IMG/VR virus record: IMGVR_UViG_2563366848_000004
DNA length: 42,367 nucleotides
DNA from: a virus
Taxonomy: Duplodnaviria; Heunggongvirae; Uroviricota; Caudoviricetes
Strand: one strand, 5' to 3'
The first letter of the stretch is position 1. Every line of letters begins with the position of its first letter. Made by a program: the position numbers and the translations under genes. Of the stretch, positions 6,510 through 9,545 are shown one piece after another. The notes under the pieces were generated by a model, which saw only the letters and a list, made by a program, of their open reading frames with translations, had not been told where the DNA came from and ran no database searches.

Positions 6510-6585
6510 TTGCATATTAAGCCTGAGACTTAAATCATGTCAAGCTCCAGGCGAAATGTGATTGTAAGTTTCAGGCTTAATCGTG
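6510..6585 (-). promoter_or_regulatory. leftward early promoter with operator sites (OL/pL-like)
   Basis: On minus strand TTGACA (6543..6538) - 17 nt - TTAATA (6520..6515); 17-bp site TTAAGCCTGAGACTTAA (6517..6533) overlaps spacer/-10 and is the inverted copy of the OR site; additional half-site TCAGGCTTAA at 6571..6580. Confidence 0.5.
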
Positions 6586-6684
6586 ATGTTCACCGAATTG
6601 CAGGCAAAAAAAATCCCGACGCTAAGGTCGAGATCGGGGACTTCGTGGCTGGGTGTTGGCGGCTGAGATGGTGGGTGAGGGTGT

Positions 6685-6715
6685 AAAAAACCCGGCGCTG
6701 TGGCCGGGTTTTTTC
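6685..6715 (-). terminator. rho-independent terminator (bidirectional-type hairpin)
   Basis: AAAAAA-CCCGGC-gctgtg-GCCGGG-TTTTTT immediately after the stop of the 34-aa ORF. Confidence 0.6.
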
Positions 6716-6716
6716 A

Positions 6717-6821
6717 TTACTGCTGGTTAAATCCTTTCGGCGAGTGCTGCTGTTCTTTATTACCAAATTTTTGATTTACAATGATTTTATAAGCGTTATT
6801 GAGAGCTTGCTTTATAGACAT
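6717..6821 (-). CDS. 34-aa hypothetical basic peptide, translationally coupled to the 435-aa gene
   Basis: Hand-translated: MSIKQALNNAYKIIVNQKFGNKEQQHSPKGFNQQ; arrangement TAA(stop of upstream gene)-cacat-AAGGAG-atatta-ATG; followed directly by the terminator. Confidence 0.4.
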   Translation of the reverse strand: MSIKQALNNAYKIIVNQKFGNKEQQHSPKGFNQQ

Positions 6822-6838
6822 TAATATCTCCTTATGTG

Positions 6839-8143
6839 TTATTGACGATTAAAGTAGTTAGAGTTTAGCTCTTTAGGGAAGTAGTGTTTACGATTTACCC
6901 AAACAAATCCATCAACTTTTGATATCACAGCGACATCAACAGGCCCACCGACAGTTTCATAATCATGTGATACTTTTCTTTTGAATGCAGTGATGTTCAC
7001 TAATGATTCGGCCATATACGCAAGATCTGCCTTCCCAAGTGATTGCAACATCGATATCATTTTATTTGTATGGTTATTAACAATATAGCTTTCAAGTTTA
7101 GTATCGTGATCTTGTAAAAGTACGTTTTTGAGTTCCTCAATTTCACTGGAGAAGTGATTGGCTAGTACTCCATTGTTCATTGCAGGGAAAATATTGCTAG
7201 AAACATAATGATTAAGCCGATCAAAAACTTCCTCTGTAAGAGTTCTGTTAAAATTAATGATGTTAGGGTTGCACCCATCAATGAAAGTTACTACTTCATC
7301 TTCTTGAGCAAATGGTATAACAAACCCCATATTGGTTACCTTATTATGGGATTTATCATCAATATTATGGATCATCAATTTGTTTTTAAAAATGCCGTAG
7401 ATATGAAGAGTGCAAATGGAAGGGTAATATTCTTCCTCTCCATAACCTGTTATAACAATCCCTGAATATGTACGACTAGCATGGACTTTGAAAATTAAAC
7501 AAGTGGAATATAATATGACTTTTTCCATAAGCTCTTGCTGTATATTTTCACAGTTATCAAGAACAATAATTGATGAAATGTATGGCGATATTAAATCTTG
7601 TATATATGCTAAAGCATCATTAAACTCTTCTGTATCAAACCCTTCGAAAAAGAGATTATTCCTTAAGATTCCTATCTCTAAATCAAAGGCTTGCTTAACT
7701 ATGTTTTGAAAAATAACATTGTCGAGTTCAACGGCGGGGTTCATTGTTAAATAGTTTACTACATTATTATCATTAATGTATCTCATCAAACCTTTGAGGT
7801 TATCAACAACAAGGTTTATAACGCAAGCCTCTCTCATTTCATTTGTTATAAGGTCTGAGTTACCATTGATGAATTTTACAAAGTCATTAACATATTCTTT
7901 AATGGTAGGGAAACTAGTTTTCCCCAATTGTTTTCTATAGGATTTAATTATAAGTTCCCACGGTGCGCCACCCAGTGTCGCATTATTATAAATCATGATC
8001 CCCACGGGATGGTGTTTAGATAGTTCGAATAGTTTTTCCGCACTATTATTTATTTTTACTAATCTATTATGCTCTGTGGTGACTGCAGAGTCAGCAGCAA
8101 GGGCGATTCCAGTATTATTTATTACAACAATCTCAGCTGTCAT
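6839..8143 (-). CDS. AT-rich 435-aa protein with proteasome-beta/HslV-like Ntn-hydrolase signature; candidate lysogen-expressed defence protein
   Basis: Long ORF in a markedly AT-rich island; start at ATG 8143 (MTAEIVV..., GGGA upstream) preferred over track start 8242, which has no SD; N-terminus T2-x15-D18 ... K30-I and C-terminus DYETVGGPVDVAVISKVDGFVWV resemble Ntn threonine-protease motifs (from memory); same strand as and downstream of the repressor. Confidence 0.75.
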   Translation of the reverse strand: MTAEIVVINNTGIALAADSAVTTEHNRLVKINNSAEKLFELSKHHPVGIMIYNNATLGGAPWELIIKSYRKQLGKTSFPTIKEYVNDFVKFINGNSDLITNEMREACVINLVVDNLKGLMRYINDNNVVNYLTMNPAVELDNVIFQNIVKQAFDLEIGILRNNLFFEGFDTEEFNDALAYIQDLISPYISSIIVLDNCENIQQELMEKVILYSTCLIFKVHASRTYSGIVITGYGEEEYYPSICTLHIYGIFKNKLMIHNIDDKSHNKVTNMGFVIPFAQEDEVVTFIDGCNPNIINFNRTLTEEVFDRLNHYVSSNIFPAMNNGVLANHFSSEIEELKNVLLQDHDTKLESYIVNNHTNKMISMLQSLGKADLAYMAESLVNITAFKRKVSHDYETVGGPVDVAVISKVDGFVWVNRKHYFPKELNSNYFNRQ

Positions 8144-8164
8144 TGCAAAACATCCCGTGTAGTA

Positions 8165-8201
8165 GTGATAAATATTAATTAAATTGATAGTTTTTTTCAA
8201 T
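8165..8201 (-). promoter_or_regulatory. putative sigma70 promoter for the 435-aa gene
   Basis: Minus-strand TTGAAA (8200..8195) - 17 nt - TAATAT (8177..8172), about 30 nt upstream of start codon 8143; AT-rich DNA raises the chance of spurious matches. Confidence 0.35.
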
Positions 8202-8284
8202 CTAACATAAATGGCGGAATCACCCCCCAGTAAAGACATCATTGTCTCATGGGAACTAAAAATTCAGGACAAACCTAAAGCGAT

Positions 8285-8671
8285 TCAGTCCCCCTGCGAG
8301 CGAATCCGCCCCTTCATGTACTTCTCATACAGCTCATCCAGTTCCTTAAGACGTATCGAAAAGATGCGGAGCATGTTCTGTTGCTCTTCTTCTGGCAGCT
8401 GGCGGTAGAGCTCAAGCAGGCGCTGTTCGTCCGGCTTAAGTCCGTCCTTCTCGCCGACATCCTCACCGAGTAACCAAGGCACAGACACGCCAGCTGCGTC
8501 AGCGACAGCGAGAGCTGATTTCTTGCTGATCACGCCTTTTTTAAACCAGCCGTTCACAGACTGCGGGGTTACCCCAGCAACCCTAGCCATATCGGATTTG
8601 GTCATACCGCGCCCGTTCAGCTCTGAAAGGCGTTCGACAAGTATCGGATTAAGTACGGTTTTCTCTTTCAT
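8285..8671 (-). CDS. prophage repressor, HTH XRE family (CI/RacR-like)
   Basis: 128-aa ORF; HTH segment MTKSDMARVAGVTPQSVNGWFKKG; divergent from the Cro-like gene across an operator-rich intergenic region. Confidence 0.8.
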   Translation of the reverse strand: MKEKTVLNPILVERLSELNGRGMTKSDMARVAGVTPQSVNGWFKKGVISKKSALAVADAAGVSVPWLLGEDVGEKDGLKPDEQRLLELYRQLPEEEQQNMLRIFSIRLKELDELYEKYMKGRIRSQGD

Positions 8672-8704
8672 GGTTAGAAGAATAAGCCTTTTTCTTAAAC
8701 TTGA

Positions 8705-8760
8705 AAATTCGCCTCAGGCTTGACAATAAATTAAGTCTCAGGCTTAATTTGATTGTATTC
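8705..8760 (+). promoter_or_regulatory. rightward early promoter with operator sites (OR/pR-like)
   Basis: TTGACA (8720..8725) - about 17 nt - CTTAAT; 17-bp site TTAAGTCTCAGGCTTAA (8731..8747, arms TTAAG/CTTAA) overlapping the -10; second CTCAGGCTT half-site at 8713..8721 overlapping the -35. Confidence 0.55.
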
Positions 8761-8994: not shown

Positions 8995-9005
8995 GGAATG
9001 TAACT

Positions 9006-9545
9006 ATGCAATCACTTACGTATCAACAGAGTAACGGGTTCATTTCAGCAGCGCTGATAAATCGCGCTCAACCAAAACCGGGCGTCAGTTGTGGTGCCCT
9101 CCGTGATGCTGTTCGCGCCTGGTCAGCAGTAGCCGGGCAGGACGTTGTAACGGCCCTGATCGTTGAAGAGTGGCACCGGATAGGTGGCGAAGGTATCGAC
9201 TTTCCGGCAGATCACAGCCGTGCCCGGCAGAAGCTGTTCCGCTTCCTGGATAACCATTTCAACAGCGAACGGTACCGCGAGAACGTCCGCCAGCTGACGC
9301 CGGCAATCCTCGCTGTCCTGCCGATTGAATACCGCAATCGTCTGCTACCAGAAGACAACGTAATGGCTCGTCTGGCAAGGCTGGAGAAGGAAACCAGCGA
9401 AGCGAAGATTGCTGTCGCAATGGATGCGCCACGTCATCAGAAGCTGAAAGAGTTGAGCGAGGGGATCGTGGAGATGTATCGCGTTGACCCTGGGTTAACC
9501 GGTCCGTTGATGGAAATGGTGCAGATTATGCTGGGGGCTATATGA
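9006..9545 (+). CDS. hypothetical early regulatory protein (YdaT/CII position)
   Basis: 179-aa ORF directly after the Cro-like gene; assignment by position only. Confidence 0.5.
   Translation: MQSLTYQQSNGFISAALINRAQPKPGVSCGALRDAVRAWSAVAGQDVVTALIVEEWHRIGGEGIDFPADHSRARQKLFRFLDNHFNSERYRENVRQLTPAILAVLPIEYRNRLLPEDNVMARLARLEKETSEAKIAVAMDAPRHQKLKELSEGIVEMYRVDPGLTGPLMEMVQIMLGAI

What the first reader, a model, noticed from the sequence alone, without database searches (positions are those of the whole stretch)
8165..8201. Near-consensus promoter inside the repressor/cargo intergenic spacer
Minus-strand TTGAAA, 17 nt, TAATAT sits about 30 nt upstream of the 435-aa gene start. If real, the cargo gene can be transcribed independently of repressor read-through, as rexB has its own promoter in lambda. 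AT-rich DNA produces promoter-like hexamers by chance, so this is tentative.
Basis: seen in the sequence. Interest (0 to 1): 0.35.

Follow-up and report, generated by a model that had tools for sequence, protein, structure and literature searches.

The report
Possible promoter before prophage cargo gene
A promoter-like sequence really does sit just upstream of an accessory gene next to a prophage repressor, but such matches are common in this AT-rich DNA and related prophages lack it, so it is at most an ordinary secondary promoter.

Summary
The hexamers are exactly as described: minus-strand TTGAAA (8200-8195), 17 nt, TAATAT (8177-8172). The -10 ends 28 nt before ATG 8143.

That ATG is the true start of a 434-aa gene. 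All 34 aligned homologues begin MTAEI, so RefSeq's 467-aa model, which would place the hexamers inside the CDS, is over-extended. The 141-nt spacer (8144-8284) is therefore real.

The site is the best sigma-70 match in the spacer and scores above the prophage's presumptive PR. The statistics are marginal: 6-24% of shuffled spacers do as well, and the AT-rich island carries about 12 times more such matches per kb than the rest of the window.

- Five other cargoes in the same slot, four of them homologous cassettes, show no comparable site.
- No canonical terminator separates repressor and cargo.

Read-through from the repressor promoter, as in lambda cI-rexA-rexB, is therefore the likely default. 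The site is at most a PLIT-like secondary promoter, and this is unproven.

The cargo is more notable than the promoter. It is a proteasome-beta-like protein followed by a conserved micro-ORF. The pair occurs in mobile elements across bacteria and archaea and has no curated family.

The parts
8195..8200 (-). -35-like hexamer TTGAAA (5/6 to TTGACA)
   Evidence: Read directly. Listed by the promoter scan. PWM s35 = 5.98 bits.
8172..8177 (-). -10-like hexamer TAATAT (4/6 to TATAAT, A2 and T6 kept), 17 nt after the -35
   Evidence: The spacer is 16 nt in two variant records that have A6 instead of A7.
8163..8166 (-). Predicted transcription start zone (A at 8166 or 8163, 6-9 nt after the -10). This is an inference only.
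   Evidence: Position rule for sigma-70 promoters (established knowledge) applied to the sequence. No mapping data are available.
8153..8156 (-). Shine-Dalgarno GGGA, 9 nt before ATG 8143
   Evidence: An SD also precedes the equivalent start in every homologous locus examined.
8144..8284 (-). 141-nt repressor-cargo spacer. The distal half is about 44% GC and the proximal half, which holds the hexamers, about 24% GC.
   Evidence: 34% GC overall. No canonical terminator. No Rfam family. It is part of the cargo-specific insert, because backbone homology with other Rac-like prophages ends at about 8289.
6839..8143 (-). Cargo gene, 434 aa, with a proteasome-beta/Anbu-like fold and an invariant N-terminal Met-Thr. 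Member of phrog_5990, function unknown.
   Evidence: start and conservation; pLDDT 85; Foldseek hits to proteasome beta subunits, TMt 0.5-0.69.
6717..6821 (-). Conserved 34-aa ORF (MSIKQALNNAYKIIVNQKFG...) with an AAGGAG SD, 17 nt after the cargo stop
   Evidence: A homologous small ORF follows the gene in the enterobacterial loci examined (in L094 it overlaps the end of the gene and appears only in the gene calls), and a 50-65-aa ORF follows it in most distant bacterial and archaeal loci.
6685..6714 (-). Strong intrinsic terminator (CCCGGC-loop-GCCGGG followed by U6) closing the repressor-cargo transcription unit. It is the analogue of lambda TIMM.
   Evidence: Fold energy -18.9 kcal/mol, z = -4.4. 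The same terminator and flank are present in a related prophage carrying different cargo.
8285..8671 (-). Prophage repressor (DicA/RacR-like HTH, 128 aa). It is the probable upstream source of read-through transcription.
   Evidence: Annotated in RefSeq.
6514..6543 (-). PL-like early leftward promoter TTGACA-18-TAATAT overlapping an operator copy (TTAAGTCTCAGGCTTAA). It marks the far boundary of the cargo slot.
   Evidence: The same operator sequence occurs at 8731-8747 in the repressor/cro region.

Best explanation
The element is a genuine sigma-70-type sequence match in a true untranslated spacer. It lies at the right distance upstream of a two-gene accessory cassette that occupies the rexAB-equivalent slot of a Rac-like E. 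coli prophage.

The most likely mechanism has two parts. In the lysogen the cassette is transcribed mainly as the distal part of the repressor operon: repressor promoter -> repressor -> spacer -> 434-aa gene -> 34-aa ORF -> terminator at 6714-6685. TTGAAA-17-TAATAT then acts as a weak-to-moderate secondary promoter. It would start near 8166-8163 and add transcription that does not depend on the repressor promoter, as PLIT does for lambda rexB.

Shown:
- the hexamers, their spacing and their position;
- the true start codon;
- that the spacer lacks a canonical terminator;
- the strong terminator after the cassette;
- the slot architecture.

Inferred:
- that RNA polymerase initiates here;
- that read-through occurs;
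- the relative contribution of the two routes.
For: - Exact hexamers and 17-nt spacing.
- Top PWM hit in the spacer, about 8th in the whole 42-kb window, and above the presumptive PR.
- The -10 ends 28 nt before the verified start codon, leaving an SD-containing leader of about 23 nt.
- The site lies in the 24%-GC proximal half of a spacer that belongs wholly to the cargo insert.
- The block from the -10 to the ATG is the only part of the spacer conserved with the nearest relative L007, and L007 has a -10-like TACATT offset by 1 nt.
- The same gene family sits antisense to both neighbours in Q/lysis-slot prophages, where an own promoter is obligatory. The cassette can therefore be an autonomous unit.
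- Two records with A6 keep an allowed 16-nt spacing.
- No canonical terminator in the spacer, and a strong terminator after the small ORF.
- Lambda precedent for PRM plus PLIT plus TIMM.
Against: - The chance probability is not small: 0.06-0.24 depending on the criterion.
- Promoter-like matches are about 12 times denser in the AT-rich island, and a better 10/12 match sits inside the CDS.
- No comparable site exists upstream of the homologous cassettes in the same slot: Klebsiella L003/L004, L007, L008 and L096 give shuffle p of 0.46-0.90.
- The -35 is not conserved in L007.
- Other cargoes in this slot of sister prophages have spacers of 19-91 nt without a good promoter.
- Every available copy of this spacer is nearly identical, so there is no evolutionary test.
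- No transcript data are available. AT-rich acquired DNA in E. coli is typically H-NS-bound (PMC3923964, title and abstract as listed).
Confidence: 0.45

Rival explanations
1. The hexamers are a compositional accident of AT-rich acquired DNA with no biological role. They are either silent (for example under H-NS) or produce only noise. The cassette is expressed solely by read-through from the repressor promoter, like lambda cI-rexA.
For: - Shuffle p of 0.06-0.24.
- About 3.5 sites per kb per strand in the island against 0.3 elsewhere, and a coding-driven 10/12 site 57 nt downstream.
- No equivalent site in four homologous cI-slot cassettes or in the sister prophage E01, which carries other cargo. 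A second sister prophage has only a 19-nt spacer.
- No terminator in the spacer.
- Spurious promoters are known to be frequent in AT-rich horizontally acquired genes (PMC3923964 abstract; PMC7229825 abstract).
Against: - The site is the single best sense-strand match in the 1.6-kb island and falls in the 9% of it that is the upstream spacer, at a workable distance from the start codon.
- Its score exceeds that of the presumptive PR.
- A sequence of this quality with 17-nt spacing would be expected to bind RNA polymerase unless occluded (inference).
Confidence: 0.4
2. The element is the main or only promoter of the cassette. Repressor transcripts end in the structured region 8310-8205, so the cassette is a fully autonomous moron with its own promoter and terminator.
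For: - The repressor 3' end plus the distal spacer fold strongly: -53 kcal/mol, z = -4.6, with the closing stem followed by AUUUAUGUU just before the -35.
- The moron definition includes an own promoter and terminator and deviant GC (PMC3594210).
- The cargo is 31-36% GC against about 52% in the flanks.
- The family is autonomous in the Q/lysis slot.
Against: - The structure is a 98-nt multi-branch fold, not a canonical terminator.
- The local hairpins are weak (-8 to -9 kcal/mol, z of -1 to -2.4) with poor U-tracts, and the terminator scan finds none in the spacer.
- The downstream terminator is shared with the backbone of a related prophage carrying other cargo, so it is not cassette-specific here.
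- Homologous cI-slot loci have neither a promoter nor a terminator in the spacer.
Confidence: 0.1
3. The hexamers lie inside the coding sequence of a 467-aa protein starting at 8242, as annotated in RefSeq. On that reading there is no 141-nt spacer, and the site is an intragenic match.
For: PGAP annotation of 12 of 13 E. coli genomes. The ORF is open from 8242.
Against: - 34/34 homologues start MTAEI at the position of ATG 8143, and more than 100 homologues are 419-451 aa.
- The PHROG profile starts at residue 1 of the 434-aa form.
- An SD precedes 8143.
- The proteasome-like fold calls for an N-terminal Thr (inference).
- An A7->A6 variant frameshifts the extension, and that record is annotated as 434 aa.
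Confidence: 0.02

Closest known systems
Lambda PLIT, the secondary promoter for rexB within the cI-rexA-rexB immunity operon, which ends at TIMM
   Same: Accessory genes lie directly downstream of the repressor on the same strand, between the repressor and OL/PL. The operon is closed by an intrinsic terminator. A candidate second promoter would allow expression that does not depend on the repressor promoter.
   Different: PLIT lies inside rexA and drives only the distal gene, whereas here the site is in an untranslated spacer ahead of both cargo genes. The cargo has no similarity to RexA or RexB. PLIT is experimentally established, and this site is not.
Prophage 'morons': independent transcription units with their own promoter and terminator and a deviant GC content (for example HK97 gene 15; PMC3594210)
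   Same: The insert is present in some Rac-like prophages and absent from others at the same position. Its GC content is 31-36% against about 52%. A promoter-like site lies upstream and a strong terminator downstream.
   Different: The promoter is unproven and not conserved among sister cassettes. The terminator is shared with the phage backbone. With no terminator upstream, the insert need not be an independent unit.
Spurious or 'happenstance' promoters in AT-rich horizontally acquired DNA, silenced by H-NS (PMC3923964; PMC7229825)
   Same: This is an AT-rich acquired island with a high density of -10/-35-like matches on both strands, and AT-rich sequence lies just upstream of the -10.
   Different: This site is upstream of a gene in the sense orientation, at a functional distance from the start codon, and it also has a good -35. 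It could therefore be productive rather than spurious.

Membership tests
E. coli sigma-70 (-35/-10) promoter | -35 hexamer close to TTGACA, with TTG retained | tested here: met
   TTGAAA, 5/6
E. coli sigma-70 (-35/-10) promoter | -10 hexamer close to TATAAT, with A2 and T6 | tested here: met
   TAATAT, 4/6, with T1, A2, A5 and T6 kept
E. coli sigma-70 (-35/-10) promoter | Spacer of 17 +/- 1 bp | tested here: met
   17 bp in the window. 16 bp in two A6 variant records.
E. coli sigma-70 (-35/-10) promoter | Match exceeds what the local base composition gives by chance | tested here: inconclusive
   p = 0.09-0.10 with the PWM. p = 0.24, 0.09 and 0.06 with the >=9/12 criterion, adding 17-nt spacing and then position.
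E. coli sigma-70 (-35/-10) promoter | Conserved in orthologous or related loci | tested here: not met
   No comparable site upstream of the homologous cassettes L003/L004, L007, L008 and L096. The -35 is not aligned in L007. All other copies are near-identical and uninformative.
E. coli sigma-70 (-35/-10) promoter | Mapped transcription start or RNA polymerase binding | not testable with these tools
   No transcriptome or ChIP data are accessible.
Prophage moron (independent transcription unit) | Extra DNA present in some closely related phages and absent in others at the same site | tested here: met
   Sister Rac-like prophages carry different genes between kil/PL and the repressor. Backbone homology ends at about 8289 and resumes at about 6714.
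Prophage moron (independent transcription unit) | Base composition differs from the flanking phage genes | tested here: met
   31-36% GC against about 50-55% in the flanks
Prophage moron (independent transcription unit) | Own terminator | tested here: inconclusive
   A strong terminator lies at 6714-6685, but the same terminator and flank occur in a sister prophage with other cargo. Similar terminators follow the cassette in other genera.
Prophage moron (independent transcription unit) | Own promoter | tested here: inconclusive
   This is the candidate site, with the statistics and conservation results given above.
Lambda-type immunity operon with accessory genes (cI-rexA-rexB / PRM, PLIT, TIMM) | Accessory genes directly downstream of the repressor, on the same strand, between the repressor and OL/PL | tested here: met
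   Repressor at 8671-8285, cargo at 8143-6839, small ORF at 6821-6717, PL-like promoter with an operator copy at 6543-6514
Lambda-type immunity operon with accessory genes (cI-rexA-rexB / PRM, PLIT, TIMM) | No terminator between the repressor and the accessory genes, and an intrinsic terminator after them | tested here: met
   The scan finds none in 8144-8284 and the local hairpins are weak. The terminator at 6714-6685 folds at -18.9 kcal/mol. This is sequence-level evidence only.
Lambda-type immunity operon with accessory genes (cI-rexA-rexB / PRM, PLIT, TIMM) | Accessory proteins homologous to RexA/RexB | tested here: not met
   No Pfam, NCBIfam or PADLOC hit. The only match is phrog_5990, of unknown function, and the fold is proteasome-beta-like.

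The most novel reading that the evidence does not exclude
The site is the dedicated, repressor-independent promoter of a self-contained two-gene module: a proteasome-beta-like N-terminal-threonine hydrolase plus a small partner protein. This module has no curated family. It hops between classic accessory or defence slots: downstream of cI, between Q and the lysis genes, after a satellite primase, and in Streptococcus satellite phages. It is found across bacterial phyla and in archaea. On this reading it would be a new kind of constitutively expressed prophage-borne exclusion or defence system.
Probability: 0.2. Interest if true: 0.6.

Novelty: new member of a known kind. Interest (0 to 1): 0.22.

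Why it matters
The promoter call on its own matters little. It would only show that one more prophage accessory gene has a lambda PLIT-like second promoter.

Its practical value is for annotation and experiment design:
- It fixes the true start codon of the cargo gene. RefSeq over-extends that gene by 33 codons in most records, which swallows the candidate promoter.
- It defines the transcription unit: spacer, 434-aa gene, 34-aa ORF, terminator.
- It identifies which fragment to fuse to a reporter.

The payload is the more interesting part. It is an uncharacterised proteasome-like protein plus micro-ORF pair, widespread in mobile elements. Knowing whether it is expressed constitutively in lysogens is the first step to testing it as an exclusion or defence function.

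Tried and rejected
1. **Control by the prophage repressor.** The operator sequence shared by the OR and PL regions (TTAAGTCTCAGGCTTAA; 8731-8747 and about 6514-6530) is absent near the candidate. The inverted repeat over the -35 (8206-8197 / 8187-8178) is a weak A/T hairpin (-5.9 kcal/mol, z = -1.5) with no counterpart elsewhere.

2. **A conserved motif as the cassette's promoter.** The motif (GTGACCACTCTTATCA..TTACAA..TTTTGCGTACGCGT) lies upstream of homologues in the Q/lysis slot, and I first took it for the cassette's own promoter. It is absent from the window. In those loci a terminator that reads toward the holin gene lies on the holin side of the motif. It is therefore more probably the host phage's late-promoter/tR' region on the opposite strand.

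3. **Enlarging the comparative set.** E. coli genomes, a metagenome scan and an IMG/VR pattern scan gave only near-identical spacers. No evolutionary test of the hexamers was possible.

4. **A terminator or known RNA in the spacer.** There is no canonical terminator and no Rfam family. The strong global fold remains unexplained.

5. **Naming the cargo.** Pfam, PADLOC and NCBIfam gave nothing. A PDB sequence search gave only insignificant proteasome-beta hits. A literature search for a proteasome-like anti-phage protein found nothing.

6. **The RefSeq 467-aa start.** Rejected.

Full report
**Observation**

On the minus strand the window reads ...GTTAGA TTGAAA AAAACTATCAATTTAAT TAATAT TTATCACTACTACACGGGATGTTTTGCA ATG ACA....
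- TTGAAA occupies 8200-8195 and TAATAT occupies 8177-8172.
- The spacer between them is 17 nt.
- The -10 ends 28 nt before ATG 8143.

The promoter scan lists the site as a 9/12 match. The description and coordinates are therefore exact.

**Is this really an intergenic spacer?**

RefSeq/PGAP annotates the cargo as 467 aa starting at 8242, which would put the hexamers inside the CDS. That start is wrong, for five reasons.
- More than 100 homologues are 419-451 aa and cover only 93% of the 467-aa query.
- All 34 aligned homologues begin with an invariant M-T-A-E-I at the position of ATG 8143.
- The phrog_5990 profile aligns from residue 1 of the 434-aa form.
- An SD (GGGA) lies 9 nt upstream of 8143, and an SD precedes the equivalent start in all related loci.
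- A natural A7->A6 variant, seen in NCTC 13148 and in one IMG/VR contig, frameshifts the supposed extension. In NCTC 13148 PGAP then calls the 434-aa ORF.

**Context**

The window is a Rac-like lambdoid prophage. Its genes run integrase, RecT, RecE, YdaE, Kil, then the cargo, a DicA/RacR-like repressor, a YdaS-like Cro, YdaT, and the replication proteins O and P.
- A TTGACA-18-TAATAT promoter at 6543-6514 on the minus strand overlaps a copy of the operator that also lies in the repressor/cro region (TTAAGTCTCAGGCTTAA). This is the PL/OL analogue.
- The cargo therefore sits between the repressor and PL, exactly where lambda carries rexA-rexB.
- Lambda transcribes cI-rexA-rexB from PRM, has a second promoter PLIT for rexB, and ends both transcripts at TIMM (bioRxiv 10.1101/2021.04.19.439022).

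The slot is variable. Sister prophages carry unrelated small genes there. Backbone homology ends at the repressor stop codon (about 8289) and resumes at about 6714. The insert is 31-36% GC against about 52% in the flanks.

It contains three elements in order:
- the spacer;
- the 434-aa gene;
- a 34-aa ORF with a strong SD (6821-6717).

A strong intrinsic terminator follows at 6714-6685 (-18.9 kcal/mol). It is shared with the backbone of a sister prophage that carries other cargo.

**Is the match more than chance?**

I used a simple sigma-70 PWM. The hexamer frequencies were recalled from published compilations, so the absolute scores are approximate.
- The site scores 11.4 bits and is the best in the spacer.
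- It ranks about 8th among all positions on both strands of the window. That is below PL (12.4) and above the presumptive PR (11.0).
- 9-10% of dinucleotide shuffles of the spacer reach that score.

With the scan tool's >=9/12 rule, the shuffles give the following:

| Criterion | Shuffled spacers with a sense-strand site |
|---|---|
| >=9/12 match | 24% |
| plus 17-nt spacing | 9% |
| plus -10 ending 20-45 nt before the ATG | 6% |

The AT-rich island holds about 3.5 such sites per kb per strand, against 0.3 in the rest of the window. A better match (10/12, ATGACA-18-AATAAT) lies 57 nt downstream, over the invariant Met-Thr codons. The statistics are suggestive at best.

**Comparative evidence**

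The same cassette (68-80% protein identity) lies directly downstream of three other repressor types in Klebsiella prophages and in metagenomic contigs. A 42%-identical one does so in another Klebsiella prophage.
- Their spacers (98-300 nt) do not align with this one, apart from the last 35 nt or so in L007.
- None of them has a good sigma-70 match (best scores 6-10 bits, shuffle p of 0.46-0.90).
- In L007 a -10-like TACATT lies 1 nt offset from the window's TAATAT, but there is no -35.
- Sister Rac-like prophages with other cargo have spacers of 19-91 nt, also without a promoter.

This pattern argues that cargo in this slot is normally co-transcribed with the repressor.

In Serratia, Citrobacter, Enterobacter and Klebsiella variicola prophages the homologue sits between Q and the lysis genes. 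There it is antisense to both neighbours. In Serratia marcescens it follows a satellite primase. In the Q/lysis-slot loci, where no same-strand gene lies upstream, it must have its own promoter, so the cassette can be an autonomous unit.

All other copies of this particular spacer are identical except for the A7/A6 run and one G->T change. These copies are 13 E. coli genomes, 2 metagenome contigs and 8 IMG/VR contigs. No evolutionary test of the hexamers is possible.

**Read-through**

The terminator scan finds nothing in 8144-8284. The local hairpins are weak, at -8 to -9 kcal/mol with poor U-tracts. The repressor 3' end plus the distal spacer do fold unusually well as a whole (-53 kcal/mol, z = -4.6). 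That structure is a 98-nt multi-branch fold, not a canonical terminator, and no Rfam family matches it. Read-through from the repressor promoter is therefore expected.

**Conclusion**

The best-supported model (confidence about 0.45) has the cassette expressed in the lysogen chiefly as the tail of the repressor operon. TTGAAA-17-TAATAT then acts as a plausible, PLIT-like secondary promoter starting near 8166-8163.

| Alternative | Confidence |
|---|---|
| Compositional accident, silent or noisy, as is common in AT-rich acquired DNA (PMC3923964; PMC7229825) | about 0.4 |
| Sole promoter of a fully autonomous moron | about 0.1 |
| Intragenic site under the RefSeq 467-aa annotation | about 0.02 (effectively excluded) |

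Only transcript mapping or reporter assays can decide between these.

**The payload**

An AlphaFold model (pLDDT 85) matches proteasome beta subunits and Anbu, with TM-scores normalised to the target of about 0.5 against PDB chains and 0.69 against a viral entry. Together with the invariant Met-Thr start, this suggests an N-terminal-threonine hydrolase with large helical insertions. That reading is an inference.

The family has thousands of members across bacterial phyla and archaea. It has no Pfam, NCBIfam or PADLOC model. The gene is usually followed by a small ORF, often one that overlaps it. It also occurs in Stenotrophomonas, Providencia and Porphyromonas phages and in Streptococcus satellite phages. 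This pair is more interesting than the promoter, but it is outside the finding as given.

Noticed in passing
window 8144-8242 (-): RefSeq/PGAP over-extends the cargo gene by 33 codons (467 aa from ATG 8242) in 12 of 13 E. coli genomes. The homologue alignment, the PHROG profile and a frameshifting A6 variant all show that the real start is ATG 8143 (434 aa).
   Followed up: yes
window 6839-8143 (-): The cargo protein has a proteasome-beta/Anbu-like fold with an invariant N-terminal Met-Thr and long helical insertions. It has thousands of homologues of conserved length in many bacterial phyla and in archaea. There is no Pfam, NCBIfam or PADLOC family, only phrog_5990 ('unknown function'). It sits in typical accessory or defence slots of prophages and satellites.
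   Followed up: partly
window 6717-6821 (-); also L003, L007, L008, L012, L092, L096 and most of L013-L053: A small ORF is almost always coupled to the proteasome-like gene. It is 34-37 aa in most Enterobacteria (MS[IVL]KQA..NAYKII.NQKFG; 49 aa in Enterobacter L097/L098). Elsewhere it is 50-65 aa, often overlapping the upstream stop, with a shared motif around [YF]xS.xE[FYW]E[KR].[YF].P. This suggests a conserved two-gene system.
   Followed up: partly
window 8213-8310 (-): The last 25 nt or so of the repressor gene plus the distal spacer fold into an unusually stable multi-branch RNA structure (-53 kcal/mol, z = -4.6, 0 of 200 shuffles as good). It ends just before the -35. It is not a canonical terminator and matches no Rfam family. 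Its function is unknown.
   Followed up: partly
window 8188-8194 (-); L144, L152: The A7 run immediately after TTG in the -35 region is A6 in NCTC 13148 and in one IMG/VR contig. This changes the -35/-10 spacing from 17 to 16 nt. It could be homopolymer sequencing error or real variation.
   Followed up: partly
window 6514-6543 (-) and 8720-8749 (+): Presumptive PL (TTGACA-18-TAATAT) and PR (TTGACA-17-CTTAAT) each overlap a copy of the palindromic operator TTAAGTCTCAGGCTTAA. Further half-site-like copies lie at 8683-8698 and 8704-8721.
   Followed up: partly
window 6602-6635 and 6685-6714 (-): Two tandem intrinsic terminators lie between the cargo cassette and PL. The proximal one is also present in a sister prophage with other cargo (1368KP), and the distal one in E01. 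Both are therefore backbone, TIMM-like elements.
   Followed up: partly
L012, L092, L094, L097-L099, L137, L139 (60-107 nt upstream of the homologue's ATG): A conserved motif, ..GTGACCACTC.TA.CA..TTAC.A....TTTTGCGTACGCGT.., lies upstream of the cassette in Q/lysis-slot prophages of four genera. A terminator reading toward the holin lies nearby. It is probably the late promoter/tR' region of those phages on the opposite strand. The motif is absent from the window.
   Followed up: partly
window 8997-9026 (-): TTGATA-18-TACATT on the minus strand overlaps the start of the YdaT/CII-like gene. In position it recalls lambda PRE, which gives leftward transcription through cro toward the repressor.
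   Followed up: no
window about 8326; L002, L148, L149: The identical cargo and spacer are joined to a second repressor allele that is about 80% identical in DNA. The switch to 100% identity occurs about 40 nt before the repressor stop codon, which indicates recombination within the repressor 3' end.
   Followed up: partly
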